A stretch of 64,000 nt of DNA, from the sequence record MF327009; one strand, given 5' to 3'. The stretch is from Shigella phage Sf25. Below the pieces are notes generated by a model that had not been told where the DNA came from, ran no database searches, and worked only from the letters and a program-made list of their open reading frames with translations. Made by a program: the position numbers and the translations under genes. Below are positions 835 through 63,757 of the stretch, piece after piece; the first letter of the stretch is position 1, and the number at the start of each line of letters is the position of its first letter.

Positions 835-1036
835 TTTTCACCTTTTTATTGATATGTCTTTTTCTATAGACAACTTTTTCTCGAGTTTCAAATTTATTCT
901 TAGCAGTCATAGCTCGAGCCCATAATACAGCCACTTCTTTCGCCTGTAAGTTTAATTCACGAGCAATTTCAATGAATGACTTTCCAGACTCATGAAGAGT
1001 AAACACCACAACCTCAGTTCTCATAATCAATCTCAT
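821..1036 (-). CDS. hypothetical small protein (71 aa); its 5' end and upstream leader lie inside a 202-bp tandem duplication
   Basis: ORF track; a second copy of its first ~38 codons plus leader is present at 1125-1238. Confidence 0.5.
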   Translation of the reverse strand: MRLIMRTEVVVFTLHESGKSFIEIARELNLQAKEVAVLWARAMTAKNKFETREKVVYRKRHINKKVKNGTV

Positions 1037-1326
1037 GTTATCGAGTTGGTGCCATTATATACATCATTTTCTGATTGTGTTTTGTGTGCTTTCAAAATGA
1101 AGAAAGGGGCCGAAGCCCCTTATGTAATACAGCCACTTCTTTCGCCTGTAAGTTTAATTCACGAGCAATTTCAATGAATGACTTTCCAGACTCATGAAGA
1201 GTAAACACCACAACCTCAGTTCTCATAATCAATCTCATGTTATCGAGTTGGTGCCATTATATACATCATTTTCTGATTGTGTTTTGTGTGCTTTCAAAAT
1301 GAAGAAAGGGGCCGAAGCCCCTTATG
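923..1326. repeat. exact tandem duplication, 2 x 202 bp (923-1124 and 1125-1326)
   Basis: The two units read identically, including the hairpin ggggccgaagcccc and the start codon of the 71-aa ORF. Confidence 0.9.
1090..1119 (-). terminator. rho-independent terminator hairpin (GGGGC-CGAA-GCCCC plus U-run) downstream of hoc; duplicated at 1292-1321
   Basis: GC stem with GNRA-type loop followed on the minus strand by a T-rich run. Confidence 0.55.
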
Positions 1327-1327
1327 A

Positions 1328-2395
1328 TTATGGATAGGTATAGATGATACCAGTTTCTAAAGCAGTTTTATGAATGATGTATCCATTACGTGATTCTTGA
1401 ACATCAACTTCTGGATAGTCTTTCATCATCTTCTGAAGCGTATAACGATGCAAGTAGTATTTACTATCTGGATCGTCAGTTTTCCAATCTTTACCTTCTT
1501 CGGTCATTTTTTGGATTTCATCCATAACCCACCAACCACACCAGATGTAAGCTGAAGTACGATGTGGAAGAGGATGAACATAAGGTAATTCACCTTCTGG
1601 CTCTGGAGCAACTTTATCAGTTACCTGAACTTGACCTTCCGCCGTAATAGTTTTGCTATCATAATCAGCAGCAGTAACAGTTGCAGTAACTTCAATAGTT
1701 TGACTTCCAATAGATGAGGTATCAATGGTATATACATTAGTTGACCCTTCTACAGGAGAAGAATCTTTCTTCCATGAATACGCAATTTGCGCTTCTTCTG
1801 GAGCATCAGTGACATTAGCAGTAAATGTAGCCGAAGCATCTTGTTGAACGTTAATAGAAGGAGGAGTCAATGTAACCTGTGGATTCATTGTCTTCTTATT
1901 AACTGTTAATGATACTTCATTCGAAGTAACTTCCTTTTCATTGTAATTTTCAGCAGTTACTTGGGCTACGCATTTAATTCTTTTTACTCCACTTGTAGTT
2001 GGAGTATAGCTAAATGTAGAGTTAGTTTCTCCACCAACTTGTGAATCATCTACATACCACTGATACGTAGCAGATGCGCCTGATGGCTGCGAAGCCAAAG
2101 CAGCGGTAAATTCAACAGCTGTTCCGATTACTCCTTCCGGAGGACTATTAGGAGTTACGGCTAAGGTAGTCGTCTGTGTCTTATTTTGAACTGTGATAGT
2201 TGTACTAATTTCAGCTGTTTCGGGACTACTATCGGCAACTTGATTTGTTGCAACTACTTTAATAGTCTTTTGACCGGCAGGTCCTTTTAATACATAACTA
2301 AAAGTTGCTTCAGCTCCATCTTGTGGAACATCATCTACAGTCCAAGCATATGTAATAGGTCCATCTCCAGTTTGACCACTGGGCGTAGCAGTAAA
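1328..2395 (-). CDS. hoc: Hoc (highly immunogenic outer capsid protein, Ig-like domains); 5' end missing, no ATG/GTG in the open frame upstream of TTG 2098
   Basis: Frame open from 2395 to 1328; translation ...FTATPSGQTGDGPITYAWTVDDV...ASATYQWYVDDSQ...ELPYVHPLPHR...IIYTYP matches recalled T4 Hoc from about residue 22; a TAA immediately precedes F22. Confidence 0.8.
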   Translation of the reverse strand, partial: FTATPSGQTGDGPITYAWTVDDVPQDGAEATFSYVLKGPAGQKTIKVVATNQVADSSPETAEISTTITVQNKTQTTTLAVTPNSPPEGVIGTAVEFTAALASQPSGASATYQWYVDDSQVGGETNSTFSYTPTTSGVKRIKCVAQVTAENYNEKEVTSNEVSLTVNKKTMNPQVTLTPPSINVQQDASATFTANVTDAPEEAQIAYSWKKDSSPVEGSTNVYTIDTSSIGSQTIEVTATVTAADYDSKTITAEGQVQVTDKVAPEPEGELPYVHPLPHRTSAYIWCGWWVMDEIQKMTEEGKDWKTDDPDSKYYLHRYTLQKMMKDYPEVDVQESRNGYIIHKTALETGIIYTYP

Positions 2396-3015
2396 TTAAT
2401 GTAATAAATTAAGCTAAATAATGTTTGGTGTGCAGAAGCATGCTCAAAACTAGTTGGGTGAGATTTCCAATCCGGAGTTTCAGCGATCCATTGATAAATC
2501 CACCAAGGAACAGTACAGAATCCTGGATTTTTTCCAATCAACTGAAGATTCGGGCTAAAGTTTTCCGGAAGAGTAAATACAGACGGCTTTTCAGATTCAA
2601 TAATCTCAGCTACAGCCTGTTCGAATTTTTCTTCAACAAAAGGAGTATCTTCAATCAAAACATCGGTATTTTCAGGAATTTTATCCGTTTCTACTACTTC
2701 AATTTTAATGTCAGATTTAACTGGAGAATCAATCAAAAGTGCTGCTTCTGGATTGACTTCTTCATCGTCATATTTTAATCCCTCTGCAGCATCAGCAGCA
2801 TCAATTAAGTCTTTAATAGATAACCCATCAGTCTCTGGCATAGGTTCACTAGCGAGCTTCTGGAGAGCTTCTTCAATATCAACAACGATATTATCAAAAG
2901 ATTTATTCTTTTTGACCTTTATACCAAACTGTTCAGCATATTCAGCTAATTTAGCTTTAGCTTCTTTGTTATCATCAAGAGCCTTCAGCTCTGCAATATA
3001 ATCTTTATCTATCAT
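2335..3015 (-). CDS. inh: Inh-like protein (prohead protease inhibitor); 3' end reads about 20 codons into the hoc region in another frame
   Basis: 226-aa ORF starting MIDKDYIAELKALDDNKEAKAK; position between hoc and uvsW as in T4. Confidence 0.6.
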   Translation of the reverse strand: MIDKDYIAELKALDDNKEAKAKLAEYAEQFGIKVKKNKSFDNIVVDIEEALQKLASEPMPETDGLSIKDLIDAADAAEGLKYDDEEVNPEAALLIDSPVKSDIKIEVVETDKIPENTDVLIEDTPFVEEKFEQAVAEIIESEKPSVFTLPENFSPNLQLIGKNPGFCTVPWWIYQWIAETPDWKSHPTSFEHASAHQTLFSLIYYINLLLRPVVKLEMDLLHMLGL

Positions 3016-22465: not shown

Positions 22466-22807
22466 TTATGCTTTCTGCTTACCAAAACGAGAAGCATCAT
22501 CTCGAAGAACCGCACGTGCTCGGCGCATGATCTTCTCAACAGTTTGATTGATACGAGAGTTCGACCCACGCTTGTAGCCAGCGCGTTTAGAATCACCAAC
22601 TTTCTTTTCAACTGCTTTCTTTGCTTTAGCTTGTTTTTTCTGCTTACCAAAACGAGAAGCATCATCTCGAAGAACCGCACGTGCTCGGCGCATGATCTTC
22701 TCAACAGTTTGATTGATACGAGAGTTCGACCCACGCTTGTAGCCAGCGCGTTTAGAATCACCAACTTTCTTTTCAACTGCTTTCTTTGCTTTAGCTTGTT
22801 TTGCCAT
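22466..22807 (-). CDS. small highly basic protein, expanded from about 58 to 113 aa by an in-frame 165-bp tandem duplication
   Basis: Translation MAKQAKAKKAVEKKVGDSKRAGYKRGSNSRINQTVEKIMRRARAVLRDDASRF with the 55-aa block repeated exactly. Confidence 0.55.
   Translation of the reverse strand: MAKQAKAKKAVEKKVGDSKRAGYKRGSNSRINQTVEKIMRRARAVLRDDASRFGKQKKQAKAKKAVEKKVGDSKRAGYKRGSNSRINQTVEKIMRRARAVLRDDASRFGKQKA
22472..22801. repeat. exact tandem duplication, 2 x 165 bp (22472-22636 and 22637-22801), in-frame
   Basis: Identical nucleotide units; boundary ambiguous by 1 bp. Confidence 0.9.
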
Positions 22808-23428: not shown

Positions 23429-23734
23429 CTAACAGGTAACGAATTTTTGTTTAATTTCTTTTGGCTGCTTAAGACCCAGAGCTACAAAAGGGTGTGGAAC
23501 GTTTCGAATTTGACCAACTGGAAGAGAAGTCAAATCACCAACTTCACAGAAACCTTCAGGAACATCAGGACCAACAGAGTGAACTACACACAGTTCAGGA
23601 ACTTCACCTTGAACACGTTTACCGATAATAAGTCCTGATTCTGTAACTTCTTCATCACCGGCTTGTGCAGGTTCAGAAACTAAAATAACATATTCACCGA
23701 CAGCACGAATTGGTAGCTGTTGTACTTCAGACAT
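23429..23734 (-). CDS. 31: gp31 co-chaperonin (GroES-like); ORF is 101 aa versus 111 aa recalled for T4
   Basis: [44 protein letters not shown] matches recalled gp31; ends at ...KFVTC. Confidence 0.8.
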
Positions 23735-25485: not shown

Positions 25486-26006
25486 GTTGATCCCAGCTCC
25501 TTACTTTCAACGTTTTTAACTAATTTGACAGAAACTAATTCGGCATCTTGGGTAATCATTACCGGGCCTTCTTCATACTCTTCAAGATATTCTAGAGCTT
25601 TCTTTTTAGCTTCTTCCTTCGTATCAGTTTGAGCATAGATATAGAACATACAACCAGTAATACCTACTACTTTCCACTTAATTTCTTTATCAGTTTTAAT
25701 TTCAAATTTACTGATAGAGTCATCTTTTTGAACTTCTTCGAAAAAATAATATTCTGACATATAAGTAATTGAAAATAACGGGCTATCTTTATAAGATTCG
25801 CCCATTACATCAACAGCTTTATACCAGCAGTCATCAATTTCACGTTTAATGCTAATAACATTTTTCGCAGAATCTATTTTTACTTTAAATGAATTTTCCC
25901 CAATAAACTTGGCAATTCGTTTATTAGCCCCGCAAGTTTCATTAAAAATATCTTTATATCCAGCTTTAAAGCGATAAACCTTATCTTCTTCAAACCATTT
26001 GCTCAT
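25479..26006 (-). CDS. hypothetical protein (175 aa), cd.3-like
   Basis: ORF track. Confidence 0.45.
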   Translation of the reverse strand: MSKWFEEDKVYRFKAGYKDIFNETCGANKRIAKFIGENSFKVKIDSAKNVISIKREIDDCWYKAVDVMGESYKDSPLFSITYMSEYYFFEEVQKDDSISKFEIKTDKEIKWKVVGITGCMFYIYAQTDTKEEAKKKALEYLEEYEEGPVMITQDAELVSVKLVKNVESKELGSTC

Positions 26007-26068
26007 TTCAATTTCCTCATTTGTTTTGGTAGAGCTATAATATCACAACTCTACCGTAAAGTAAACTG

Positions 26069-27965: not shown

Positions 27966-28196
27966 TTATTTCTCAACCAATGATTGAATATAATCATGCA
28001 GGTCTTTAGATGCTTTACCCCACTTATTTTGGTATTCATTTTTAAGATTAGCCCGAGATTGAGCTAATAAAACATCATTAGTTGGAGGTAAAGATTCTAA
28101 CCGTTGAATCTGGCGTCCATAAATCATTGCAGCCATCTCGGATTCATAAATCAATCCTTTGAGATGTTCAAATTGATGCCATGAAATCATTTGCAT
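27966..28196 (-). CDS. hypothetical protein (76 aa), pseT.2-like
   Basis: ORF track. Confidence 0.45.
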   Translation of the reverse strand: MQMISWHQFEHLKGLIYESEMAAMIYGRQIQRLESLPPTNDVLLAQSRANLKNEYQNKWGKASKDLHDYIQSLVEK

Positions 28197-28639
28197 TTAT
28201 CCTCTTTTAACTCTTGACGATAATAACATATCATAGTTTTCTGATCATGTACATATCGTTTTACATCATTAAGCCAAATGCGAAATTCCTGGGAATCTTC
28301 AAATGGCATACCGACCCAAGCTTTACCATCAATAACTTTAACTTGCCAGGATAGTTTAGCTTCATCGTATGACTTTATTTGTACTGGCCAATTAGGATGA
28401 ACTGTTTCTTTCTTTACTTCTAGAGGCTTTGTCGAACAACCAACTAGAAGACCAATAGATAATATTACCCAAGCTTTACCATCAATAACTTTAACTTGCC
28501 AGGATAGTTTAGCTTCATCGTATGACTTTATTTGTACTGGCCAATTAGGATGAACTGTTTCTTTCTTTACTTCTAGAGGCTTTGTCGAACAACCAACTAG
28601 AAGACCAATAGATAATATTACTGCTGATAGTTTAATCAT
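28187..28639 (-). CDS. putative lipoprotein, expanded from about 99 to 150 aa by an in-frame 153-bp tandem duplication
   Basis: Signal/lipobox-like LSIGLLVGC-S; the 51-aa block ILSIGLLVGCSTKPLEVKK...DGKAWV is repeated exactly, giving two lipobox copies. Confidence 0.5.
   Translation of the reverse strand: MIKLSAVILSIGLLVGCSTKPLEVKKETVHPNWPVQIKSYDEAKLSWQVKVIDGKAWVILSIGLLVGCSTKPLEVKKETVHPNWPVQIKSYDEAKLSWQVKVIDGKAWVGMPFEDSQEFRIWLNDVKRYVHDQKTMICYYRQELKEDKCK
28314..28619. repeat. exact tandem duplication, 2 x 153 bp (28314-28466 and 28467-28619), in-frame
   Basis: Identical nucleotide units. Confidence 0.9.
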
Positions 28640-28989
28640 TTAGAAAGGTCCTGGATGTCTTCTGCGAACTTGTTGAAGGAGTTGTTGATTTGTTTTTCAA
28701 CCAATCCTGGCTTACTAGCCACCACATCCGCCTTCTTTGCGTCTTTGCGCAGCTTTTCATTTTCACGCTCAATAGCAGCAATTGCCTCACGATTTTTATT
28801 ATTCATTGCATCAATATAATTATATTGATTTTTTAAATCATTTAATGCTAAAGCATTTTCATTAGCAGTTTTTGTAATTTCTACGACAGACGTTTCTAAT
28901 CTTTCAATTTTGTGTTTTAAAACTAAAGAAGTTCCGCCCAATATAATTACAATTAATAGTAAACCTGCTGTAGTATTACTTAATTGCAT
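28636..28989 (-). CDS. hypothetical membrane-anchored protein (117 aa)
   Basis: ORF track; N-terminal hydrophobic segment LLLIVIILGGTSLVL. Confidence 0.45.
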   Translation of the reverse strand: MQLSNTTAGLLLIVIILGGTSLVLKHKIERLETSVVEITKTANENALALNDLKNQYNYIDAMNNKNREAIAAIERENEKLRKDAKKADVVASKPGLVEKQINNSFNKFAEDIQDLSK

Positions 28990-29483
28990 AAAGTTTTAAT
29001 AACCTCTATAATATCGTCTTGAGAAAGACCGTTAATTAAAATATGATGTTCAGCTGGAGATTTAGAAATTTTAAAGCATGCCGCAACATCTTCTGCCATA
29101 TCTGATGCACTACGATTTGGATTACTAATTCCAAGACGATGCTTTCCAGTCAAAGGATTAACGATGATATAGCATTTGCAGCTATTGATATGAACATTAG
29201 GCTGAGTCTGATTAATGAATACTTCGCACTCATACTTAGCGAGTTGATTTTCTAAAAAGACTTTCATCTCCTCAACCGCATCAGGAAGCATATCACGGGC
29301 TTGCTCAAGACGACGATTTCGATATTCTTTAATGGTCGTTTTCCGCTTGACTTGCTTAGCTAAATCTTTCTTAAGATCGGTGATATATCCAACTCGACGA
29401 TTTCCTTTAAATACAGAAATCCCATCTGTAGTATCACCGTATGCTTCAACGACCATCTCAGTAGTAATAAGCTGCAAATCCAT
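28980..29483 (-). CDS. alc: Alc (inhibitor of host transcription on cytosine DNA)
   Basis: 167 aa from the second Met; position between pseT.x and rnlA as in T4. Confidence 0.7.
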   Translation of the reverse strand: MDLQLITTEMVVEAYGDTTDGISVFKGNRRVGYITDLKKDLAKQVKRKTTIKEYRNRRLEQARDMLPDAVEEMKVFLENQLAKYECEVFINQTQPNVHINSCKCYIIVNPLTGKHRLGISNPNRSASDMAEDVAACFKISKSPAEHHILINGLSQDDIIEVIKTLCN

Positions 29484-29490: not shown

Positions 29491-29544
29491 TCCTCATGTT
29501 ATGTCAGTAAGATTACTATAACACAACACGAGGGACTTGTAAAC
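29491..29544 (-). promoter_or_regulatory. early-promoter cassette upstream of alc; 54 bp identical to 13401-13454
   Basis: Same -35/-10/RBS cassette as at 13401-13454. Confidence 0.5.
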
Positions 29545-32383: not shown

Positions 32384-34897
32384 TCATAATTTACAGGATG
32401 AACAATCTTCAGCTTTTGGAGTTTCTATTTCATAATCATCAGTACCAGAACCGTCACGGGTATTATGATAATAGAAATTTTTTCCGCCAAAATACCAAAA
32501 ATATAAAAGGTCATCAATCATTATTGACATTGGAACCTTTCCTTTTGGAAAAATCTGCGGGTCATAATATGTATTAGCTGAAGCTGATTGACATACCCAT
32601 TTCAGCATAATAGCTACTTGCGTAAGATAAGGTTTATTGCCTTTCTTAGCTAATTTCCACGTATAATCATAGAGGTCTATGTTATGCTCAATATTGGGCA
32701 CGACTTGATTAAAGGAACCCTCTTTTGATTCTTTAACAGAGACTGGTCCACGTGGAGGCTCGATACCGTTTGTACTGTTAGAAACTTGGGAAGATGACTC
32801 ACATGGCATAAGTGCTGATAATGTGCTATTACGGATGCCAAAGAGCTTAAGGTCTTCCCGCAGCGACGACCAGTCACAAACGTATTTTGGAGCTGCGATT
32901 TGGTCAATCTTTTTATTGTACCAGTCGATAGGTAATTCGCCTCGAGACCAACGAGTGTCTGAATAATATTCGCAAGGTCCTTTTTCTTTGGCGAGCTTAA
33001 TGGATGCTTTAATGAGTCCATACTGTAATCTCTCAAATAGTTCATGTGTTAAATCGTTAGCATCTTCATAAGAAGCAAAATTACTTGCCAGCCAAGCTGC
33101 ATAGTTAGTAACACCTACACCAAGATTTCGACGCTTTTTAGCTTTTTCTGCTTCAGGAACTGGATATCCTTGGTAATCCAAAAGATTATCAAGAGCACGA
33201 ACTTGGACTTCTGCCAATTCATTAATTTTATCTTGGTCTTGCCAATCAAAGTTATCTAACACAAATGCAGATAACGTACACAATCCAATTTCAGCATCAG
33301 GACTATTCACATCATTTGTTGGAATAGCAATTTCACAGCACAAGTTGCTCTGACGAATAGGTGCCTTTTCACGAATAAACGGAGTATAGTTATTCGTATT
33401 ATCTATGAACTGTACATAAATCCTTGCTGTTCCTGAGCGTTCAGTCATGAGCAATTCAAATAGTTCACGGGCTTTAATACGCTTTTTACGAATATTAGGG
33501 TCTTTTTCTGCTGCTTCGTATAATTCACGGAAACGGTCTTGGTCTTTAAAATAAGAATAATAAAGCTCGCCACCCATTTCATGCGGACTGAACAAAGTAA
33601 TGTAATCGTTCTTTCCGAATCGTTCCATCATCAAATCATTCAGCTGAACACCATAATCCATATGACGGATACGGTTTTCTTCTACACCTTTGTTATTTTT
33701 CAAAACGAGAAGATTTTCAACTTCCAAATGCCAAATAGGATAATAAGCAGTAGCAGCGCCGCCACGAATTCCACCCTGTGAGCATGATTTAACAGCAGTC
33801 TGAAAATGTTTCCAAAAAGGAATAACACCAGTATGGCGTACTTCACCTGTGCCAATCTTAGAACCTTCGGCACGAATCATACCAACGTTAATACCAATTC
33901 CATAATCCATATGACGGATACGGTTTTCTTCTACACCTTTGTTATTTTTCAAAACGAGAAGATTTTCAACTTCCAAATGCCAAATAGGATAATAAGCAGT
34001 AGCAGCGCCGCCACGAATTCCACCCTGTGAGCATGATTTAACAGCAGTCTGAAAATGTTTCCAAAAAGGAATAACACCAGTATGGCGTACTTCACCTGTG
34101 CCAATCTTAGAACCTTCGGCACGAATCATACCAACGTTAATACCAATTCCAGCGCGTTTGGAGATATATTCAACAATTGAAGCAGAAGCCTTATTGATAG
34201 ACTTTAATGAATCACCTGCTTCAATAACAACGCATGAACTAAACTGCCGAGTTGGAGTACGGCAACCAGCCATAATAGGAGTTGGCAGTGAAATCTGTCG
34301 AGTAGATACTGCTTCATAAAAACGGATAACGTGTTTTAATCTATCAACAGGTTCATCTTGATGCAATGCCATTCCAATAGTCATAAATGCAAACTGTGGA
34401 GTTTCATAAATTTGACCAGTGGTTTTATCTTTAACTAGATATTTTTCTTTTAATTGCATCGCCCCGGAATAAGTAAATTCCATATCCCGCTCGTGCTTAA
34501 TTTTTGATTCTAAAAATGTAATTTCTTCGGCAGAATATTTTGACAACAATTCAGGGTCATATTTACCTTCATTTACACAGTAAGAAATGTGGTCAATAAA
34601 TGAACGTGGTTCATACTGCCCATAAACATGCTTACGAAGAGCGAACATTAAACAGCGTGCAGCTACATATTGATAATCAGGCTCTTCAACTGAAATAGAA
34701 TTCGCAGCAGCCTTAATTACAATGGTTTGAATGTCATCAGTTGTCATTCCATCACGGAGATATGATTTAATATTTTCATATAATTCATAAGGATCTACAG
34801 ATGTTCCTTCAGCTGCCCAAGATAAAACTTTAATAATTTTTTGCGGGTCAAAGCTCTGAGAAACACCACTACTTTTGATAACATTAATTAATTGCAT
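32384..34897 (-). CDS. nrdA: ribonucleotide reductase large subunit carrying an in-frame 249-bp tandem duplication (837 aa versus 754 aa expected)
   Basis: MQLINVIKSSGVSQSFDPQKI...; 83-aa block GIGINVGMIRAEGSKIG...NRIRHMDY repeated exactly. Confidence 0.9.
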   Translation of the reverse strand: MQLINVIKSSGVSQSFDPQKIIKVLSWAAEGTSVDPYELYENIKSYLRDGMTTDDIQTIVIKAAANSISVEEPDYQYVAARCLMFALRKHVYGQYEPRSFIDHISYCVNEGKYDPELLSKYSAEEITFLESKIKHERDMEFTYSGAMQLKEKYLVKDKTTGQIYETPQFAFMTIGMALHQDEPVDRLKHVIRFYEAVSTRQISLPTPIMAGCRTPTRQFSSCVVIEAGDSLKSINKASASIVEYISKRAGIGINVGMIRAEGSKIGTGEVRHTGVIPFWKHFQTAVKSCSQGGIRGGAATAYYPIWHLEVENLLVLKNNKGVEENRIRHMDYGIGINVGMIRAEGSKIGTGEVRHTGVIPFWKHFQTAVKSCSQGGIRGGAATAYYPIWHLEVENLLVLKNNKGVEENRIRHMDYGVQLNDLMMERFGKNDYITLFSPHEMGGELYYSYFKDQDRFRELYEAAEKDPNIRKKRIKARELFELLMTERSGTARIYVQFIDNTNNYTPFIREKAPIRQSNLCCEIAIPTNDVNSPDAEIGLCTLSAFVLDNFDWQDQDKINELAEVQVRALDNLLDYQGYPVPEAEKAKKRRNLGVGVTNYAAWLASNFASYEDANDLTHELFERLQYGLIKASIKLAKEKGPCEYYSDTRWSRGELPIDWYNKKIDQIAAPKYVCDWSSLREDLKLFGIRNSTLSALMPCESSSQVSNSTNGIEPPRGPVSVKESKEGSFNQVVPNIEHNIDLYDYTWKLAKKGNKPYLTQVAIMLKWVCQSASANTYYDPQIFPKGKVPMSIMIDDLLYFWYFGGKNFYYHNTRDGSGTDDYEIETPKAEDCSSCKL
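33651..34148. repeat. exact tandem duplication, 2 x 249 bp (33651-33899 and 33900-34148), in-frame within nrdA
   Basis: Identical nucleotide units; boundary ambiguous by 3 bp. Confidence 0.9.
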
Positions 34898-34915: not shown

Positions 34916-35271
34916 TCGTCTTTAAACAATCGGTTAACTATATGAGCTATTATATCACCATGACACGGCTTTGGTTTACATGTGCATCCTAGCCTCATTC
35001 CACGTAAAGGCTCTAAATGTGCTTTAGTTATTTCTCCGGATTTAATTCGACGTATAAAATCTTTTTTGAATAATTCAATGGCAGCCTCCCGGCTCGTCTT
35101 TAAACAATCGGTTAACTATATGAGCTATTATATCACCATGACACGGCTTTGGTTTACATGTGCATCCTAGCCTCATTCCACGTAAAGGCTCTAAATGTGC
35201 TTTAGTTATTTCTCCGGATTTAATTCGACGTATAAAATCTTTTTTGAATAATTCAATGGCAGCCTCCCGGC
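34916..35271. repeat. exact tandem duplication, 2 x 178 bp (34916-35093 and 35094-35271), just upstream of the nrdA start
   Basis: Identical units; unit length not a multiple of 3; replaces the 3' end of the upstream ORF. Confidence 0.9.
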
Positions 35272-35392
35272 TGCCAGCATCTTTACCGACGTAATTTCCC
35301 CAAAATGTACCACGGTGAATATTAACATCAAAGTCGGATTTATATTTATTCACTACCCGGCATAGACGGCCCGCGCGGTTGTAGGTGTTCAT
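35075..35392 (-). CDS. hypothetical protein (nrdA.1-like); C-terminus altered by the 178-bp duplication
   Basis: ORF track; without the second copy the frame would end ...NRLFKDDFQVEDLCN overlapping the nrdA ATG. Confidence 0.45.
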
Positions 35393-39158: not shown

Positions 39159-39200
39159 ATTATTTTCCTCTTTAATCATCAGCAGTATTGCCGATAGTTG

Positions 39201-39230
39201 TATAGTACCATGGAAGGACAAGGATGTAAA
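39201..39230 (-). promoter_or_regulatory. early promoter (-35 GTTTAC, -10 TACTAT) with AT-rich upstream element
   Basis: Minus-strand GGTTTACatccttgtccttccatggTACTAT; cassette recurs at 55870-55899 and 59253-59282. Confidence 0.5.
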
Positions 39231-39244
39231 CCGTTTTGTGAAAA

Positions 39245-39281
39245 AAATTTTTGAAATAAAAAGGGGACCTCTAGGGTCCCC
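39245..39281 (-). terminator. rho-independent terminator after gene 32 (GGGGACC-CTAGA-GGTCCCC plus U-run)
   Basis: Strong stem-loop followed on the minus strand by ttttatttcaaaaattttttt. Confidence 0.65.
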
Positions 39282-39303
39282 AATTAATTAGTAATATAAT
39301 CTA

Positions 39304-40311: not shown

Positions 40312-40809
40312 TTAATACTTGCAAGATTTCACAGTTTCAATAAAAACTTTTTTAGCTTCCTGTGAATCAATATTTAAAATTTTTCTATAAGCCTTTAACT
40401 TTATAGAATAATTATTCCAAACTAAATTATCAGTTTGTTGATCATGTTTATCAATTATATTTAAAAACGAATCAAGCAAGATAAACGTCTCAAACGAAAT
40501 TATGTTCGATTGCAGAAGTTTAAAAATATAACTTGACTGAACTTTTGGATTATACTCAAAAATTTCTTTAAAAGCAGAAACTTCAACTTTTTTACTAAAA
40601 TAATAAATGTTGCGAATATCTTCTTCAAACTTAAATTTAATTTGCTTTAAGCGTCCGATATATTCACGATAAAACACAAGTGCATCAGCGTCAGAGATGT
40701 CACCAATCCAAGCATCTTGGTTAGCAACCAAATTGCTTATAAAGATTAAAGCAAGTTCCTTTAATTTATATTTTTCTGATAACTTCTGGAAAAAATACTT
40801 ATCCCTTCG
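40312..40809 (-). CDS. 59: gp59 helicase loader, C-terminal 165 residues only (about residues 53-217), fused in-frame to gene 33
   Basis: RRDKYFFQKLSEKYKLKELALIFISNLVANQDAW...ETVKSCKY matches recalled T4 gp59; the N-terminal about 52 residues are absent. Confidence 0.75.
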   Translation of the reverse strand, partial: RRDKYFFQKLSEKYKLKELALIFISNLVANQDAWIGDISDADALVFYREYIGRLKQIKFKFEEDIRNIYYFSKKVEVSAFKEIFEYNPKVQSSYIFKLLQSNIISFETFILLDSFLNIIDKHDQQTDNLVWNNYSIKLKAYRKILNIDSQEAKKVFIETVKSCKY

Positions 40810-41127
40810 ATTAGTTTTTTCACAACGAACAACAGAAGGACGTAAAAGATTTTCGTCGATAGCTTCTGACTGAATTTTTTCAATTATACCCGAAGGAATA
40901 AATTTAGCAAATTGAGTTTCAGGAATAGAATTTTCTTCTAAGAACGCTGTTGTAGCTTCAAGATAACTCATTCCAAACTCTTCTACCATTTTTTCAATAA
41001 TAAATCCATTTTCTTGGCGGTCAAGAAGCTTTGCTATTTCATCCTTTTCTTTCTTAATTGAAAGTTCTTTTTCTGAAAGACCGGTCTCATCGACCGGACG
41101 AATATCATTTAGAGAAAACTGTGTCAT
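40810..41127 (-). CDS. 33: gp33 late-transcription co-activator, residues 1-106, lacking its last about 6 codons and stop, fused in-frame to gene 59
   Basis: MTQFSLNDIRPVDETGLSEKELSIKKEKDEIAKLLDRQENGFII...VVRCEKTN continues directly into the gp59 sequence. Confidence 0.75.
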
Positions 41128-41374
41128 AAAGTTCAACTACCTCTTCAGTTTCAGCTTCAAACACATCACGGTTATCTTTATGATACAAAGCTAACAGACG
41201 ATTAAACATCTTACCATCAACGCCAAGTTCATCTTTGGCACGAATTCGAATATCTTTAATCAATTCATTATAACCAGAAATTTTCAGTTTATGATCAGAT
41301 GCTTCTTTAATAAATTTAGCTAAGTCTTCGCCATGGATAGCTTCATCAAATTCAACCATTTCTTTTTTAGCCAT
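41105..41374 (-). CDS. dsbA: DsbA double-stranded DNA-binding protein
   Basis: 89-aa ORF; position between rnh and 33 as in T4. Confidence 0.75.
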   Translation of the reverse strand: MAKKEMVEFDEAIHGEDLAKFIKEASDHKLKISGYNELIKDIRIRAKDELGVDGKMFNRLLALYHKDNRDVFEAETEEVVELYDTVFSK

Positions 41375-48134: not shown

Positions 48135-51100
48135 ATGGCTACTTTAAAACAAATACAATTTAAAAGAAGCAAAACTGCAGGTCAACGTCCTGCTGCTTCA
48201 GTATTAGCCGAAGGTGAATTGGCTATAAACTTAAAAGACCGTACTCTTTTTACTAAAGATGACTCGGGAAATATTATTGATTTAAGCATTTCTGCCGGTG
48301 GTAACATTAGTGGAAATATCACTCAAAATGGTGATTATTTACAAAACGGCACGTATAATCTTAATGGAAATCAGTTTGTTTATGCAGGAAAGTATATTGA
48401 ATTCTTGCCAAAAACTGCTGGAAATGGTGCTTGGGCAAATCAGCACACAAATAAAGCTCCAATTTTCACCGATTTGAGTTCAACTACTTCAACTTCTGAA
48501 TATCATCCGCTAATTAAACAACGTTATAAAGATGGAACGTTTTCATTAGGGACTTTAGTTTCTGAAGGCTCAATGAAGATACACTATATCGATGAAACTG
48601 GCACTTCAAAATATTGGACTTTCCGACGTGATGGTGGTTTTGTTGTTGATAGTGGTAGTTTAACTGTTACTGCTGGAAACATATCTGCTTCAGGCAATAT
48701 TAATTCGGCATCAGGGGTTGTTTCAGCTCCTCAAATTAATACAAAAACCATTGTTTTAGATACAAAAGCATTTGGACAATATGATTCGCAGTCATTAGTT
48801 CAGTATGTTTATCCTGGCACTGGCGAAACAAACGGTATAAACTATCTTCGTAAAGTTCGCGCAAAATCAGGTGGTACAATTTATCATGAAATAGCTTCAG
48901 CTCAAAGTGGAAAAAGCGATGAAATTTCGTGGTGGACTGGAAATACAGCCGTTAATAAACAAATGGGTCTTCGTAATGATGGTGCAATGGTATTACGTCG
49001 TTCACTTGCTATTGGCACAATTACTACAGATGAAAACGTAAATAACTATGGATCTGCTGGAGCAATGGGAGAAAAATACATTGTTCTTGGAGATGCGTCA
49101 ACTGGACTAGCTTATAAAAAGACAGGAGTTTATGACTTAGTTGGTAGTGGTTTATCTGTTGCTTCTATCACTCCCGACAGTTTTCGTAGTACCCGTAAAG
49201 CAATTTTTGGACGTTCTGAAGACCAAGGCGGTACATGGCTTCTTCCTGGTCAAAACGCTGCTCTTCTTTCAGTTCGTACAGATATTGATCAAAATAATAA
49301 CGGTGATGGTCAAACTCATATTGGATATAATAGTAACAGCAAGTTTTATCATTATTTTAGAGGCAGAGGCCGAATGGCTGTTGGAATGGCTGAAGGTCTT
49401 ATTGTTGAGCCTGGAATTTTAGATATTAAAACTGGTTCAAATACTGTTTCTATTAGAGCTGATGGCGGAATTTCATCTACTCAGCGTCTTTCATTGCAGA
49501 ATGGTATATTTTTATCTTCTGACGGAAATAACAACGGTATATCGTTTAAAGCTTCTAGCAGTATAGATGGAACTAAAACTCTTAATTGGGATGCTGGTAC
49601 TCGTGCAGGTCAAAACAAAAATACAGTAATTTTAAAAGCATGGGGAAATTCATTTAATACAAGTGGTGGAACTGATAGACATACTGTATTTGAAGTTTCT
49701 GATTCGCAAGGATACTACTTTTATGCTCAACGTACTACCCCTGCATCCGGTCAAACAGTAGGTCCTATTAATTTTAAATTTAATGGTACTGTAGAAACCG
49801 GTCATATCAATGGATTAGGTAATATTACTTTATCTGGGGCAGTTATAGCAGATTCTGCTAATATTAAAGGACCGCTAAAAATATCTAATGCTAATACAGC
49901 TGATGCTTTTAGAATATGGAACGCTGAATATGGAGCCATTTTCCGTCGTTCAGAAACATCATTGCATATTATTCCTACACTTAAAGATGCAGGGGAAAAT
50001 GGTGGAATAAGTAATCTTCGCCCATTAAGTATTGATCTTTCAAACGGATTTGTGCAAATGCATCATTCTCTTTCTGTGGGGAATACAGTAAGAACGAATG
50101 GATTGTTTGCTGTGGATACTTCAGCTGCTCTTGTTGCAATTAACAGATGTTCCTATTGTGAAACAAAGATACGTTCAAGGGAATAGCACCTATTCATTAG
50201 GTACTTTAATTAATGGTGGTGATTTCCGTTTACATTACCATGAAGGCGGTGACAGTTCTTCAACAGGTGCAGTTATAAAAGATATTTCCTGGGAATTTAA
50301 ACGTAATGGTGATTTCTATTCGCCAGGTCGTTTACGTACAGGAAATATCTATATTGGAACTGATGGTAATATCACGGGTGGTTCTGGTAACTTTGCTAAC
50401 TTGAATACAACTTTAAACCGTAAAGTTAATTCTGGTTTTATTACTTATGGAGCAACTGCAGGTTGGTACAAGTTTGCAACAGTAACAATGCCTCAAGCTA
50501 CATCAACCGTTTCAATTACAGTCACTGGCGGAAATGGATTTAATTCTGGATCATTTAATCAGTGTGCAATTTCTGAAATTGTTCTTCGTACAGGAAACAA
50601 TAATCCTCTGGTGATACATATGACATTTATGTTAATATGGGAACATATGCTAATCAGTTGATATTTAACTATAGTTCTGTTGATAATGCCACAGTTCAAA
50701 TTATTGGCGCATTCAGTTCAGCTCAAAATCCTGTTGATGCATTGCCAGAAACATATGTTAAAGGTCAGGTAGCAGATGTATTGACTAACTTAGTTGATTC
50801 TGGAAAAACGAAGCGTTTTGTTGCTGAATCTGAAATAGCTATTAATAATCAAACTGGATTACGTATTACGAGTAATGGTGATAAATCTGGTTCAAATTCA
50901 GTATTATTCAGAAATGATGGATCAGCGTTTTATATTCTTTTAACAGATAAAAACGCAGCAGATGGAAATACGACTGCCACAGAAGGAGATTGGAATGGTA
51001 AACGTCCTTTCCAAATTAATATGACTTCTGGTGAAGTAACATTCGGAAATAATATTAATATTTCTGGAAACGGAAGCATTACTTGGACAAAAGCCGGAGC

Positions 51101-51800: not shown

Positions 51801-52498
51801 ATGGCAATTGTAGGTGTTCCTGGCTGGATTGGTGAATCTGCCGTGAATGAAACAGGACAGCGTTGGATGGATGCTGCAATGAGAGCAGTCCGTGTTTCAG
51901 TTCCCGGTTGGATGAGCTCAATGGCCGGACAATCTAAAGAAGTATATTATAGCATTGGTGCTAGTAATTCTTATAATAAAGATACATTAATAAACTGAAT
52001 GCATACGTGACACTTAATATCAATTCAGGCGTGCATGTTTGGGGCCGTGGCGGGAATGGCGGAAATAACTCTGCCGGTGGAGCAGGAGGAACTGCAATAA
52101 ATAATGGAATTGGAACTAGATTGCGTATTAACAACAATGGTGTTATCGCAGGAGGCGGTGGCGGCGGTGGAGGCGGATATTATTCTCCTTTTTCACAAAT
52201 GAAATTGACTTTTGGCGGTGGCGGCGGTCGTCCATTTGGTGCTGCTGGCGGGTCTGCTAATATGGAACAGGGCGCTACTGCTGGTACTATTTCTGCACCT
52301 GGTAAAGGGTCTGTCAATGGTATCTATAATGGCGGGAATGGCGGTGATGCTGGTGCCGCAGGTGGTAAATGTAATATTCGTGGGCAAGGATCAGAATATA
52401 ACGGCGGTGCGGCCGGTAAAGCTGTTACTGGTAATGCTCCAACTTGGACTAAGGTTGGTACAATATATGGCCCTCTGATATTCTATTTGGTGTTCTAG
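51801..52498 (+). CDS. 38: gp38 receptor-recognising adhesin (T2-type, glycine-rich islands); split by a frameshift near 51980-51996
   Basis: ORF 51801-51998 (MAIVGVPGWIGESAVNETGQRWM...) and ORF 52007-52498 in another frame with GGGGGGGGG islands; the second frame is open back to 51980. Confidence 0.75.
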
Positions 52499-55828: not shown

Positions 55829-55869
55829 TTTCTAATCTCCGTAATTCTGTATCAGTAGTTGATAGTTGT

Positions 55870-58529: not shown

Positions 58530-58718
58530 TTATTTTACACCATTCCAAATTGTTTCAACTACAGATTTTAAGCCATTTTGATGAATGTCCATTCCGACTA
58601 CCGCCATCAAATAGATTCCAACTACGTTTAACATATCAATCATTAAAACGATTGGGAATATACTCAAAACTACTAGTATTATAACTACATTCCATATAGC
58701 TTTAATAATCTTTTTCAT
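58530..58718 (-). CDS. small membrane protein (about 62 aa from MKKIIKAIWNVVIIL)
   Basis: ORF track 58530-58853, trimmed to the internal Met preceded by GGAGG and an early promoter at 58746-58776. Confidence 0.4.
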   Translation of the reverse strand: MKKIIKAIWNVVIILVVLSIFPIVLMIDMLNVVGIYLMAVVGMDIHQNGLKSVVETIWNGVK

Positions 58719-61330: not shown

Positions 61331-63757
61331 TTAGGCCGCAAGGGCCTTCATAGTTTTAGCGATTTGAGAAACTTCATCATCACTTAAAGAGTTGCGATAA
61401 CCGATGAAGTCGGAAACAATACGGAATTTCTTGGTAAACTCAGCAACCATTTTATCACTGTTTTTTGAAGCATTATTTGATAATACATCAAAAAGATTAG
61501 TTACTGTCCAGATGTCATGACCGATGGTACCTTTTCCACCGTTGAAATATACGCCCCGCAATGAACTAACTATATTAGCGAGTCGTGTATATTCTTCAGA
61601 AACTTCATCTGTACTGAAGTACTTCATCATAAAATCTAGTTCAGGATACTTGATAATTTTATCAATATATCGTTGAGCTGAACTTGAATAACCTACGTAC
61701 TTATCATAATCTACATCATCAAAAGCATCTACATATAAATCACGCAGAGTTTCAAAAATACATTGGCACTGACCGAGTTCTTTTACCTTTTTCTGCAAAA
61801 GCGGACGAATAACATAAAATTCATTAATGCCAATAAGATTAGCCATACGAATCAAAATATTCATAGATGGATGACAAAGAGATGTAGTACCATCCATAGA
61901 GAAAATATCAGAACGATGCATATACGCTACATAACCAGTAATTTCATCTGCTTCTGATGTGAGCGTAAACAGTTCCTCTTTTTCCCATCGCCCATCTTTA
62001 ATTTCAAACTTAAATGCTGTAGCAGCTTTAGGACGAGGAGCTTTACTTTTAACTACCTTTGGAATATAGCTTTTAACTAAAGCTTCAATTTCTGACAAAT
62101 AATGAATGTTAACTTCATCACTTTCAAACATCGCCATAATATCAGGAAGTAAATCAATCTGCGATTCTACTTCTGGATTAATAAACAGAAGACGCTCATT
62201 GTGATGAATATTCAAAGTGTTATTAAATTCACTATCATCTAACGCATGTGCTAATCCACGAACAATATTAACACGATTTTTAATATTATCAATAACGATA
62301 TTAATTTTTGTTGTATTAATACCAAACAGACGATAACTTGATGCAACGGCTGAAGTTTCATGACTTTGCTTAATGCGTTTCAGTCGAGGGTCAAGATTTA
62401 CTTCATACACAACTCCTGCATTGCATAACTTACTGTCAGGTTCAAACATGCTCTGCATCTTTTTATATGACAGATTTTTAGTCGTGAATTTGACTGAATT
62501 ACTAATCATATAATCTCGAGCAGAATATCCCATCTTCATCAATTCACGATATGTGTGACGAGGAGATGTAGATTCTTTAAATCGTTTTACATCTTCATTG
62601 AATGCCTTCTCACTAAGCTCTTTAACACGCTCAATAATATTTTTACGAGTACGATCATCTAGTGAAAGAGCTTCGCGTGATGGAGCAATATCAAGTGAAC
62701 CCATTGGAAACTTAATGTAATTCACTTCATTGCGAATGCTTAGCCAGTTACGGTCTCTAATAACACCATCGATAGGATAAACAATACCGCCATAGATAGC
62801 ATATAATCCACCACGATCAGGCCAGTATCTTTCTGGATTTACACCATAATAATCATCAAAATCAGGAAAATAATCAATTTCAATAATATTTTTACGAGTA
62901 CGATCATCTAGTGAAAGAGCTTCGCGTGATGGAGCAATATCAAGTGAACCCATTGGAAACTTAATGTAATTCACTTCATTGCGAATGCTTAGCCAGTTAC
63001 GGTCTCTAATAACACCATCGATAGGATAAACAATACCGCCATAGATAGCATATAATCCACCACGATCAGGCCAGTATCTTTCTGGATTTACACCATAATA
63101 ATCATCAAAATCAGGAAAATAATCAATTTCGCGGTCAAGACCATTAATGATAGCCAAATCTTTGAACGGTCGCATGATATAAGAAACTTCATAAGCAAAG
63201 TTTCTAAAGTCTTTTTCTTCAACTGGAACTACGATTTCAATACCAGTTTTATCATCTGGACCCATTTCTTTTACGAATGTAGGTTTAATCTGTGGGCCAT
63301 CACCATCCATGTAAGCTACATAACCACGAATTTCACCTTTATGATACGAAGTAATACTAAACGTATCAGTATAACTAAACGGAGATTTAGAACCTAAACC
63401 AAATCCGCCAATAAAGTCATTAGATTCAGCCTTAGATGAACTGAAGTATGAATTATACAGCCCAGGAGAATTATCATCACCCTGAATATCAAAATCACTC
63501 ATACCCGGACCAAAATCTCGACAAACAAATCGTGGATCTAATCGTCCTGGAACTTGAATGATAAATTTTTCAGGATTTCCATTAAGTGCATGAGCATCAA
63601 TCATGTTAGTAATCAATTCACGGACTACTGCGCGAATCTTGTTTGTATACAAATCAGATGACAGAATTTTAAATACTTTAGGATTTGCTGCGATGCTAAA
63701 TGCTTTTGATTTAGAACCATTGCCAAGAATTGTTTCTTTTTCAGTGGTGATAATCAT
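61331..63757 (-). CDS. rIIA: rIIA protein carrying an in-frame 249-bp tandem duplication (808 aa versus 725 aa expected)
   Basis: [20 protein letters not shown]...; 83-aa block [24 protein letters not shown]...TRKNIIE repeated exactly. Confidence 0.9.
62631..63128. repeat. exact tandem duplication, 2 x 249 bp (62631-62879 and 62880-63128), in-frame within rIIA
   Basis: Identical nucleotide units. Confidence 0.9.

What the first reader, a model, noticed from the sequence alone, without database searches (positions are those of the whole stretch)
28314..28619. Exact in-frame 153-bp duplication in a putative lipoprotein, duplicating the lipobox
Units 28314-28466 and 28467-28619 are identical. 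The encoded 51-aa block includes the hydrophobic segment and cysteine (ILSIGLLVGC-STKPLEV...), so the product would have a second internal signal/lipobox-like segment after the first mature domain, an unusual topology.
Basis: seen in the sequence. Interest (0 to 1): 0.45.

Follow-up and report, generated by a model that had tools for sequence, protein, structure and literature searches.

The report
Assembly-join duplication in phage o-spanin gene
The perfect 153-base repeat sits in the outer-membrane spanin (lysis) gene of a T4-like Shigella phage, and is almost certainly two contig ends pasted together without trimming their overlap, one of at least fourteen such join errors in this stretch, so it is ordinary.

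Summary
Units 28314-28466 and 28467-28619 are 100% identical and in frame, inside minus-strand ORF 28187..28639 (150 aa). That ORF is the T4 pseT.2 o-spanin, just downstream of the pseT.3 i-spanin. The window is Shigella phage Sf25 (protein AUV63357.1).

The duplication is very probably not biological.
- About 500 related phage genomes hold one copy.
- The junction is absent from three large contig collections.
- All other homologue clusters are 95-112 aa.
- Collapsing the repeat gives exactly the common 99-aa o-spanin (Cys17/87/98, as in T4).
- Two independent assemblies that are 100% identical through the unit and the DNA on its i-spanin/alc side carry one copy.

The window holds five more perfect two-copy duplications (165-249 nt). 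It also has at least eight sharp missing-segment joins and two homopolymer frameshifts. These break essential genes: 37, 38, holin t (start codon and ribosome site gone), 33 and 31. A plaque-forming phage cannot have that genome, so the record is a draft scaffold with untrimmed overlaps and unfilled gaps.

Artefact about 0.93; real duplication about 0.05. No reads were available. One caveat: four of the five intragenic duplications are in frame (p about 0.045).

The parts
28314..28466 (.). Repeat unit 1 (153 nt). Read here as the 3' end of the left-hand contig.
   Evidence: 100% identical to unit 2. Single copy in Kha5h and KRT47.
28467..28619 (.). Repeat unit 2 (153 nt). Read here as the 5' end of the right-hand contig. 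The junction is 28466|28467 with 2 nt ('AC') of slack.
   Evidence: The junction 26/31-mers are absent from viral, metagenome and genome contig collections.
28187..28639 (-). o-spanin gene (T4 pseT.2 homologue) as written, 150 aa. The true gene is most likely 300 nt / 99 aa.
   Evidence: PHROG 812 E=4.9e-57. It equals AUV63357.1, Sf25_gp77. The collapsed ORF is identical to P0002, 99 aa, Cys17/87/98.
28636..28989 (-). i-spanin gene (T4 pseT.3 homologue, 117 aa, N-terminal transmembrane segment, no Cys). Its stop overlaps the o-spanin start by 4 nt (ATGA).
   Evidence: PHROG 739 E=3.3e-37. Annotated 'spanin Rz / PseT.3' in Kha5h. The overlap is shown. It contains the PseT.3 peptide ERENEKLRKDAKKA used by Kongari 2018.
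923..1326 (.). Overlap-type join: perfect 202-nt duplication covering the start of gene 24.3 and the hoc/24.3 intergenic region.
   Evidence: Single copy in KRT47 and Sf24.
22472..22802 (.). Overlap-type join: perfect 165-nt duplication inside gene 30.9.
   Evidence: Gene 30.9 is 58 aa in the ERZ and SRR contigs.
33651..34151 (.). Overlap-type join: perfect 249-nt duplication inside nrdA, giving an ORF of 837 aa instead of 754.
   Evidence: NrdA is 754 aa in ERZ27303200.
34916..35272 (.). Overlap-type join: perfect 178-nt duplication inside nrdA.1, which shifts its frame.
62631..63130 (.). Overlap-type join: perfect 249-nt duplication inside rIIA, giving an ORF of 808 aa instead of 725.
52469..52471 (.). 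Gap-type join: 71 nt missing relative to phage JK1, whose flanks are 100% identical. The lost stretch holds the end of gp38, the intergenic region with the Shine-Dalgarno site, and the ATG plus first 8 codons of holin t.
   Evidence: All 12 listed records have 872-873 nt (873 in 11, 872 in one) for 801 nt of window.
50146..50608 (.). Two gap-type joins (-173 nt at 50146|50147, -69 nt at about 50607). They leave the middle of the essential tail-fibre gene 37 out of frame, so gp37 is split into three ORFs.
51997..52002 (.). Gap-type join in gp38: about 103 nt (residues 66-100) missing, with a frame change.
40809..40810 (.). Gap-type join: 173 nt missing. This removes the last 6 codons and stop of gene 33 and codons 1-52 of gene 59, creating a 274-aa fusion ORF (40312..41136).
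   Evidence: with the KRT47 annotation.
23431..23432 (.). Gap-type join: 72-93 nt missing, including the last 10 codons of gene 31 (co-chaperonin).
2394..2396 (.). Gap-type join: 133 nt missing, covering the C-terminal 19 codons of inh and the start of hoc.
   Evidence: with the Sf24 annotation.
58624..58626 (.). Gap-type join: 130 nt missing in the ndd.2a/ndd.4 region.
   Evidence: same break against Sf24 and KRT47.

Best explanation
The gene is the ordinary two-component spanin pair of a T4-like phage. The i-spanin (PseT.3 homologue) is at 28636-28989. The o-spanin lipoprotein (PseT.2 homologue) lies just downstream. Together they span the periplasm and disrupt the outer membrane at the last step of lysis. 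The 153-nt tandem duplication inside the o-spanin gene is an assembly artefact of the deposited Shigella phage Sf25 record. Two neighbouring contigs whose ends overlapped by 153-155 nt were concatenated without merging the overlap. The true gene is the 300-nt, 99-aa version.

Shown: the repeat is exact. It is unique to this record. It is one of six identical-type events in the window. The same window has at least eight joins where sequence is missing, plus homopolymer frameshifts that break essential genes. The collapsed ORF equals the commonest Tequatrovirus o-spanin.

Inferred: the joining procedure itself.
For: (1) Uniqueness.
- About 500 phage records match the region at 90-99% identity. 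Every listed one holds 746-748 nt (748 in 38 of 40) for the 899-901 nt of query it covers, which is one copy.
- The 80-nt junction query only ever aligns as two pieces at the two ends of a single unit.
- Junction 26/31-mers give 0 hits in the viral, metagenome and genome contig collections.
- The only 150-aa homologue among 5.8 billion protein clusters is AUV63357.1 from one 168,573-bp contig. All 36 other clusters are 95-112 aa.

(2) The collapsed ORF equals P0002 exactly (99 aa; 208 member sequences, at least 1000 contigs). Its Cys17/87/98 match T4 PseT.2.

(3) Independent assemblies ERZ27303200 and Logan SRR5371447 encode the identical i-spanin. They are 100% identical to the window from 12 nt left of the unit through at least 1.3 kb to the right. 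They carry one copy, as well as a 58-aa 30.9 and a 754-aa NrdA.

(4) Six perfect 2.0-copy duplications (153-249 nt) lie in 64 kb, with only 0-3 nt of junction slack. All are single copy in KRT47 and Sf24. By comparison there are 0 such repeats in 377 kb of T4-like DNA from other sources. There is 1 (265 nt) in Sf24, which was deposited in the same accession series and comes from the same river source.

(5) The same window has sharp missing-segment joins that break gp37 into three frames and split gp38. They also delete the holin t start codon and ribosome-binding site, fuse gp33 to gp59, and truncate gp31. In addition there are 1-nt homopolymer deletions in 30.1 and 30.2. For the t join, a phage with 100% identical flanks (JK1) and 11 others all have the 70-71 nt (71 in 11, 70 in one) that the window lacks. 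A phage isolated by plaque formation cannot have this genome, so the record demonstrably contains join errors.
Against: No reads or assembly metadata could be examined. The Sf25 record itself and the describing paper (J Virol 2018, PMC5874400) are not held.

Four of the five intragenic duplications are multiples of 3 (p about 0.045 by chance). None of the six duplications on its own hits an essential gene (my rough estimate p about 0.05-0.1). That pattern is what selection on real duplications would produce.

The overlap lengths are variable, so this is not the fixed k-mer overlap of a de Bruijn assembler. The Sf24 example (265 nt) exceeds a 250-nt read, so the apparent cap at 249-252 nt may be coincidence.

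Similarity breakpoints against relatives coincide with the junction only for this duplication, not generally.
Confidence: 0.93

Rival explanations
1. The duplication is a real tandem duplication in the Sf25 genome. It would arise by illegitimate recombination or replication slippage at the 2-nt 'AC' microhomology. The product would be a 150-aa o-spanin precursor. The first signal peptide is processed at Cys17. The mature lipoprotein then carries a doubled N-terminal linker/beta-1 region with an internal hydrophobic stretch and an extra periplasmic Cys (Cys68).
For: The duplication is in frame and leaves the first signal peptide, the lipobox and the C-terminal Cys pair intact. Four of five intragenic duplications in the window are in frame, and none hits an essential gene. 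Spanins are dispensable for plaque formation under usual laboratory conditions (own knowledge of lambda Rz/Rz1), so a damaged o-spanin could persist.
Against: It is never seen again in about 500 relatives, three contig collections and 5.8 billion protein clusters. The copies show zero divergence. Six such events in 64 kb compare with none in 377 kb elsewhere. The same record has joins that delete the holin start and break gp37, gp38, gp33 and gp31, so the sequence cannot be trusted at exactly this kind of feature. T4-type recombination would also tend to collapse perfect 150-250-nt tandem repeats (own knowledge). An extra periplasmic Cys would probably disturb the two essential disulfide cysteines C87 and C98 (Kongari 2018; inference).
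Confidence: 0.05
2. The record is a chimera of two co-sequenced T4-like genotypes. The repeat marks the point where a contig of one genotype was abutted to a contig of another. The unit is then the SNP-free stretch shared by both.
For: At this junction Kha5h is 100% identical from 27944 to 12 nt beyond the unit and about 96% further right. The ERZ and SRR contigs are 100% identical from 12 nt left of the unit rightwards and 97.4% further left. At the 249-nt duplications, polymorphic sites abut the unit boundaries (33650, 62630, 63131).
Against: Per-kb identity profiles against Sf24, KRT47 and ERZ show ordinary T-even mosaicism. Their breakpoints do not generally coincide with the other five junctions. 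The coincidence at this junction may be chance, because ERZ and SRR were selected for having an identical i-spanin. This is a sub-variant of the artefact explanation, not a biological alternative.
Confidence: 0.02

Closest known systems
Phage T4 two-component spanin PseT.3 / PseT.2 (separated architecture; Kongari et al. 2018, PMC6139136)
   Same: The gene order alc - pseT.3 - pseT.2 - pseT.1 - pseT is the same. The i-spanin is 117 aa without Cys. The collapsed o-spanin is 99 aa with lipobox Cys17 and periplasmic Cys87 and Cys98. Both antibody peptides used for the T4 proteins (ERENEKLRKDAKKA, WLNDVKRYVHDQKT) are present verbatim.
   Different: As deposited, the o-spanin ORF carries a 51-aa internal repeat (150 aa). 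No other member of the family has this. I attribute it to the assembly.
Lambda Rz / Rz1 spanins
   Same: The function is the same (an inner-membrane and outer-membrane lipoprotein complex that disrupts the outer membrane). The T4 pair complements lambda Rz/Rz1 amber mutants. Many records annotate these genes as 'spanin Rz' and 'outer membrane lipoprotein Rz1'.
   Different: There is no detectable sequence relationship. The lambda genes are embedded one within the other, while these are separate. T4-type o-spanins have a beta-alpha-beta organisation and need both Cys residues.
Untrimmed contig-overlap duplications in deposited genome assemblies (for example terminal overlaps left when contigs are circularised or concatenated)
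   Same: There are exactly two head-to-tail copies at 100% identity, with no meaningful junction homology. The repeat is unique to one record, recurs several times in the same record, and is accompanied by gap joins and homopolymer errors.
   Different: The overlap length varies (153-249 nt) rather than being a fixed k. The joining procedure is not documented in anything I could read.

Membership tests
T4 PseT.2-type o-spanin (PF26831 Phage_T4_Spanin / PHROG 812) | Sequence homology to the family | tested here: met
   PHROG 812 E=4.9e-57, matched in two stretches because of the repeat. All homologues carry PF26831. The collapsed ORF is identical to P0002 'Rz-like spanin [phage RB68]'. The local Pfam copy gave no significant hit, only UPA_2 below its cutoff.
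T4 PseT.2-type o-spanin (PF26831 Phage_T4_Spanin / PHROG 812) | N-terminal lipoprotein signal with a lipobox Cys | tested here: met
   MIKLSAVILSIGLLVG|C has Lys3, a hydrophobic core, and the L-V-G-C pattern at residues 14-17. This is a pattern test only. SignalP and LipoP were not available.
T4 PseT.2-type o-spanin (PF26831 Phage_T4_Spanin / PHROG 812) | Immediately downstream of an i-spanin gene that has an N-terminal transmembrane segment (separated architecture) | tested here: met
   The i-spanin at 28636-28989 matches PHROG 739 at E=3.3e-37. Its stop overlaps the o-spanin start by 4 nt.
T4 PseT.2-type o-spanin (PF26831 Phage_T4_Spanin / PHROG 812) | Two conserved periplasmic cysteines (C87, C98), both required for lysis | tested here: met
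   They lie at positions 87 and 98 in the collapsed ORF, and at 138 and 149 as written, with an extra Cys68. The requirement is taken from Kongari 2018.
T4 PseT.2-type o-spanin (PF26831 Phage_T4_Spanin / PHROG 812) | Outer-membrane disruption activity | not testable with these tools
   This needs complementation of lambda Rz-am Rz1-am or a T4 pseT.2 mutant.
Contig-overlap assembly artefact | Two exactly identical head-to-tail copies with no spacer and no significant junction homology | tested here: met
   100% identity over 153 nt with 2 nt of slack.
Contig-overlap assembly artefact | Absent from independent assemblies of the same or near-identical DNA | tested here: met
   The ERZ and SRR contigs have one copy and are 100% identical through the unit and on the right (i-spanin/alc) side, but about 97.4% identical on the left.
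Contig-overlap assembly artefact | Other join defects of the same kind in the same record | tested here: met
   There are five more perfect duplications, at least eight gap joins and two homopolymer frameshifts. Essential genes 37, 38, t, 33 and 31 are broken.
Contig-overlap assembly artefact | Reads do not span the junction | not testable with these tools
   No reads were available. The record and the paper are not held.
Genuine tandem gene-internal duplication | Junction observed independently (a second isolate, assembly or read set) | tested here: not met
   0 hits in four collections and no second protein of this length.
Genuine tandem gene-internal duplication | The surrounding sequence is a trustworthy, viable genome | tested here: not met
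   The holin start is deleted, and gp37, gp38, gp33 and gp31 are disrupted in the same window.

The most novel reading that the evidence does not exclude
The duplication is real. Sf25 would then make an o-spanin whose mature part carries a doubled linker/beta-1 module, an internal pseudo-signal segment and a third periplasmic cysteine. That would be a natural test of how much extra length and how many extra thiols the periplasm-spanning T4 spanin complex tolerates.
Probability: 0.04. Interest if true: 0.3.

Novelty: not a real feature. Interest (0 to 1): 0.06.

Why it matters
Biologically it matters little. The locus is the well-characterised T4-type spanin pair, and the odd topology disappears once the overlap is collapsed.

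The practical value is curation. The Sf25 record (protein AUV63357.1, UniRef100_A0A2K9VM38, named 'Outer membrane lipoprotein Rz1') spreads a 150-aa pseudo-variant. The same window also yields an 837-aa NrdA, an 808-aa rIIA, a gp33-gp59 fusion and fragmented gp37, gp38 and t. These products enter protein databases and can mislead comparative work on tail-fibre and host-range genes, lysis genes, or gene-internal duplication.

For a genome scan the lesson is general. A perfect two-copy repeat should first be checked against the rest of the contig for sibling repeats and for broken essential genes.

Tried and rejected
(1) An exact look-up of the 150-aa product in the contig index found nothing. 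The homologue search then identified it as Sf25_gp77.

(2) I tried to read the describing paper by DOI and by PMC5874400 for the sequencing and assembly method. It is not held. Literature searches for Sf25 and its sister phages gave nothing on assembly.

(3) I guessed accession MF327009 for Sf25. It is not in the collection. Its neighbours MF327005-8 are Sf19, Sf20, Sf21 and Sf24.

(4) I tested whether the nearest relative switches at every junction, which would indicate a chimeric assembly. The switch is striking at the o-spanin junction. Per-kb profiles against Sf24, KRT47 and ERZ show no general coincidence, so I kept this only as a minor variant.

(5) I considered a read-length cap as the explanation, because match runs of 251 and 252 nt occur twice. 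The 265-nt duplication in Sf24 weakens this.

(6) I considered that the in-frame bias and the avoidance of essential genes argue for real, selected duplications. I rejected this as the main reading once the gap-type joins through essential genes were found.

(7) The local Pfam scan gave only a sub-threshold UPA_2 hit for the o-spanin and coiled-coil noise for the i-spanin. I ignored these.

(8) I did not run structure prediction or fold search, because the protein as written is probably not made.

Full report
**1. Observation**

The repeat is exactly as described.
- Tandem Repeats Finder reports 28314-28621, period 153, 2.0 copies, 100% matches.
- The repeat finder gives 28314-28466 and 28467-28619 at 100%.
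- A base-by-base check shows identity over 155 nt, that is the unit plus 2 nt ('AC') of junction slack.
- The junction 31-mer occurs once in the window and never in shuffles.

The repeat lies in minus-strand ORF 28187..28639, which is 150 aa. The 51-aa block ILSIGLLVGCSTKPLEV...DGKAWV occurs at residues 8-58 and again at 59-109. The lipobox pattern matches at residues 14-17 and 65-68.

**2. What the gene is**

The window is a Tequatrovirus (T4-like) genome. On the minus strand the local gene order is rnlA, alc, a 117-aa ORF, the 150-aa ORF, pseT.1, a 106-aa ORF, then pseT (polynucleotide kinase).
- The 117-aa ORF (28636-28989) matches PHROG 739 'Rz-like spanin' at E=3.3e-37.
- The 150-aa ORF matches PHROG 812 'Rz-like spanin' at E=4.9e-57, in two stretches.
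- In Kha5h these genes are annotated 'spanin Rz; PseT.3' and 'outer membrane lipoprotein Rz1; PseT.2'.
- Precomputed Pfam gives PF26831 Phage_T4_Spanin for all homologues.

Kongari et al. 2018 (PMC6139136) describe the T4 pair. PseT.3 is a 117-aa i-spanin with no Cys. PseT.2 is an o-spanin lipoprotein whose Cys87 and Cys98 are both required for lysis. The pair complements lambda Rz/Rz1. Both antibody peptides quoted there occur verbatim in the window's proteins.

With the repeat collapsed, the ORF is 99 aa with Cys at 17, 87 and 98. It is identical to P0002, the commonest o-spanin cluster (208 member sequences, at least 1000 contigs).

**3. Source and uniqueness**

The exact 150-aa protein is AUV63357.1, 'hypothetical protein Sf25_gp77 [Shigella phage Sf25]'. 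It comes from one 168,573-bp contig and is the sole member of its cluster. All 36 other homologue clusters are 95-112 aa.

About 500 phage records match window 28100-29000 at 90-99% identity. Every listed one holds 746-748 nt (748 in 38 of 40) for the 899-901 nt of query it covers, which is one copy. An 80-nt query centred on the junction aligns only as two pieces, 155 nt apart in the records. Junction 26/31-mers have no exact match in the viral, metagenome or genome contig collections.

Two independent assemblies encode exactly the same i-spanin: ENA ERZ27303200 k141_778181 (169 kb) and Logan SRR5371447. Both carry a 99-aa o-spanin. They are 100% identical to the window from 12 nt left of the unit through at least 1.3 kb on the right.

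**4. The repeat is not alone**

A whole-window scan found six perfect 2.0-copy tandem duplications.

| Coordinates | Period (nt) | Location | Effect |
|---|---|---|---|
| 923-1326 | 202 | start of 24.3 plus upstream intergenic | an intact 24.3 copy remains |
| 22472-22802 | 165 | inside 30.9 | in frame |
| 28314-28621 | 153 | o-spanin (pseT.2) | in frame, 150 aa instead of 99 |
| 33651-34151 | 249 | inside nrdA | in frame, 837 aa instead of 754 |
| 34916-35272 | 178 | inside nrdA.1 | frameshift |
| 62631-63130 | 249 | inside rIIA | in frame, 808 aa instead of 725 |

Junction slack is 0, 1, 2, 3, 1 and 2 nt in that order. All six are single copy in KRT47 and in Sf24.

The background rate is very different.
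- No tandem repeat of at least 60 nt and at least 97% identity occurs in 377 kb of T4-like DNA from other sources. These are KRT47, Kha5h, the ERZ and SRR contigs, and 15 IMG/VR loci around the spanin genes.
- The complete Sf24 genome has exactly one, a perfect 265-nt duplication. Its two resulting ORFs are annotated as similar to each other. Sf24 was deposited in the same accession series and comes from the same river source.

**5. The decisive context: gap-type joins through essential genes**

A comparison with Sf24 and KRT47 shows sharp breaks where the window lacks sequence.

| Join (window) | Missing | What is lost |
|---|---|---|
| 2395 | 133 nt | C-terminus of inh and start of hoc |
| 23431\|23432 | 72-93 nt | last 10 codons of gene 31 |
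| 40809\|40810 | 173 nt | last 6 codons and stop of gene 33, codons 1-52 of gene 59; creates a 274-aa fusion ORF |
| 50146\|50147 and about 50607 | 173 and 69 nt | gp37 residues 728-882 fall in a different frame from residues 1-680 and 905-1287, so the gene reads as three ORFs |
| about 52000 | about 103 nt | gp38 residues 66-100, with a frame change |
| 52470 | 71 nt | end of gp38, Shine-Dalgarno site, ATG and first 8 codons of holin t |
| 58625 | 130 nt | ndd.2a/ndd.4 region |

For the join at 52470, phage JK1 is 100% identical on both sides yet has the 71 nt. All 12 listed records have 872-873 nt (873 in 11, 872 in one) for 801 nt of window. The missing 71 nt are TTCAAGAGTATAATTTTTGAATAAATATCCTTAAAAGGAGGGTCTATGGCAGCACCTAGAATATCATTTTC. 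In the window, the t reading frame has no start codon before a TTG at codon 21.

There are also single-base deletions in homopolymer runs at 19450 and 19825. These frameshift 30.1 and 30.2 relative to both relatives.

Genes 37, 38 (adhesin type), t, 33 and 31 are essential for plaque formation in T-even phages (established T4 genetics, own knowledge). A phage isolated by plaque formation cannot have this sequence. So the deposited record contains join errors. The perfect duplications are the complementary kind of the same error: overlaps left in, rather than gaps left out.

**6. Mechanism**

*Best explanation (0.93).* Contigs from a fragmented assembly were ordered and concatenated. Where neighbouring ends overlapped, the overlap was kept twice. 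Where they did not meet, the gap was closed silently. The o-spanin junction 28466|28467 is one such boundary. The true locus is the standard pseT.3/pseT.2 pair, which works as described for T4. The i-spanin is anchored in the inner membrane. The o-spanin is lipid-anchored in the outer membrane. The two interact through their C-termini, and the o-spanin forms disulfide-linked dimers through C87 and C98. The complex disrupts the outer membrane after holin and endolysin have acted. The joining procedure itself is inferred, not shown.

*Rival 1 (0.05): a real duplication.*
- In its favour, it is in frame and spares the signal peptide and the C-terminal cysteines.
- Also in its favour, four of five intragenic duplications are multiples of three (p=0.045), and none hits an essential gene.
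- Against it stand all of sections 3-5, plus the expected instability of perfect tandem repeats in a highly recombinogenic T-even phage (own knowledge).
- If it were real, the first signal peptide would direct export and lipidation at Cys17. The second hydrophobic stretch (about 12 residues, AWVILSIGLLVG) is too short for a membrane span and has no N-terminal context. It would therefore be an internal periplasmic segment with an extra thiol (Cys68), and that thiol could disturb the essential C87/C98 chemistry (inference).

*Rival 2 (0.02): a chimera of two genotypes.* It is suggested by the switch of nearest relative exactly at this unit. It is not general across the other junctions. It is still an artefact reading.

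**7. Comparison with the known, and novelty**

The locus is a plain member of the T4 PseT.2/PseT.3 spanin family, and every defining feature I could test is met. The duplication is not a real feature of the phage on present evidence. Interest is therefore low. The main value is as a curation flag for the Sf25 record and the aberrant proteins derived from it.

**8. Limits**
- No reads, no assembly metadata and no access to the Sf25 record or its paper.
- Only 64 kb of the genome was seen.
- Lipoprotein prediction was by pattern only.
- The decisive experiment is read mapping or a 748-bp versus 901-bp PCR across the locus.

Noticed in passing
window 923-1326, 22472-22802, 33651-34151, 34916-35272, 62631-63130: Five further perfect two-copy tandem duplications (202, 165, 249, 178 and 249 nt). 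They lie in 24.3/hoc, 30.9, nrdA (837-aa ORF), nrdA.1 (frameshift) and rIIA (808-aa ORF). All are single copy in KRT47 and Sf24.
   Followed up: yes
window 52470 (also about 52000, 50146|50147, about 50607): Sharp missing-segment joins. At 52470, 71 nt are missing relative to JK1, whose flanks are 100% identical; this removes the end of gp38 and the ribosome-binding site, ATG and first 8 codons of holin t. gp38 is split and frame-shifted. gp37 is split into three ORFs with its middle part out of frame.
   Followed up: yes
window 40809|40810, 23431|23432, 2395, 58625: Further gap joins shared against both Sf24 and KRT47. At 40809, 173 nt are missing, which fuses gp33 (minus its last 6 residues) to gp59 residues 53-217 as a 274-aa ORF. 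At 23431, 72-93 nt are missing, removing the last 10 codons of gene 31. At 2395, 133 nt are missing (end of inh, start of hoc). At 58625, 130 nt are missing in the ndd.2a/ndd.4 region. The length 173 occurs at two separate gaps, which is unexplained.
   Followed up: partly
window 19450 and 19825 (also 23061, 36861, 38891): Single-base deletions relative to both relatives. The first two lie in T and A homopolymer runs and frameshift genes 30.1 and 30.2. They look like sequencing or consensus errors.
   Followed up: partly
window 38469-38600: An extra 66-nt tandem copy (97%, two mismatches within the first 8 nt of the second copy), absent from Sf24 and KRT47. Sf24 has one copy followed by a natural 15-nt partial repeat. 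This may be a seventh overlap join with contig-end errors, or a real slippage event.
   Followed up: partly
window 51735-51764: A perfect 15-nt tandem duplication (CTTGAATCTAAACTT twice) at the C-terminal end of gene 37, absent from Sf24 and KRT47. It is in frame (5 aa). Its origin was not examined.
   Followed up: no
window 13401-13454 and 29491-29544: An exact 54-nt repeat 16 kb apart, upstream of alt and of alc on the minus strand. It contains a T4 early-promoter-like site (TTTACA-17-TATAGT with TG) and a ribosome-binding region. The Logan contig L010 ends exactly in it.
   Followed up: partly
window 39184-39290, 55852-55958, 58729-58794, 59236-59301: A family of 66-98-nt repeats (65-80% identical) in intergenic regions of the early-gene clusters. 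They probably represent early promoters with their upstream A/T tracts and adjacent terminator hairpins.
   Followed up: no
L006 43090-43619 (Sf24 MF327008.1, about 92090-92619): The sister phage Sf24 has one perfect 265-nt tandem duplication that creates gp121 and gp122, which are annotated as similar to each other. KRT47 has a single gene there. It is probably the same kind of join artefact from the same set of depositions.
   Followed up: partly
L009 (ENA ERZ27303200 k141_778181) and L010 (Logan SRR5371447): A 169-kb metagenome-assembled T4-like genome and a Logan contig share an identical genotype. They are 100% identical to the window across the o-spanin unit, i-spanin and alc (28302 to at least 29819), but only 95-97% identical elsewhere. 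This is ordinary T-even mosaicism with one block boundary at the repeat.
   Followed up: partly
window 6818 and 25489-26012: A 29-nt deletion between genes 26 and 51 relative to both relatives. Also a 522-nt segment present in the window and in KRT47 (gp213, 'similar to Sf23 gp63') but absent from Sf24. The second looks like natural accessory-gene variation.
   Followed up: no
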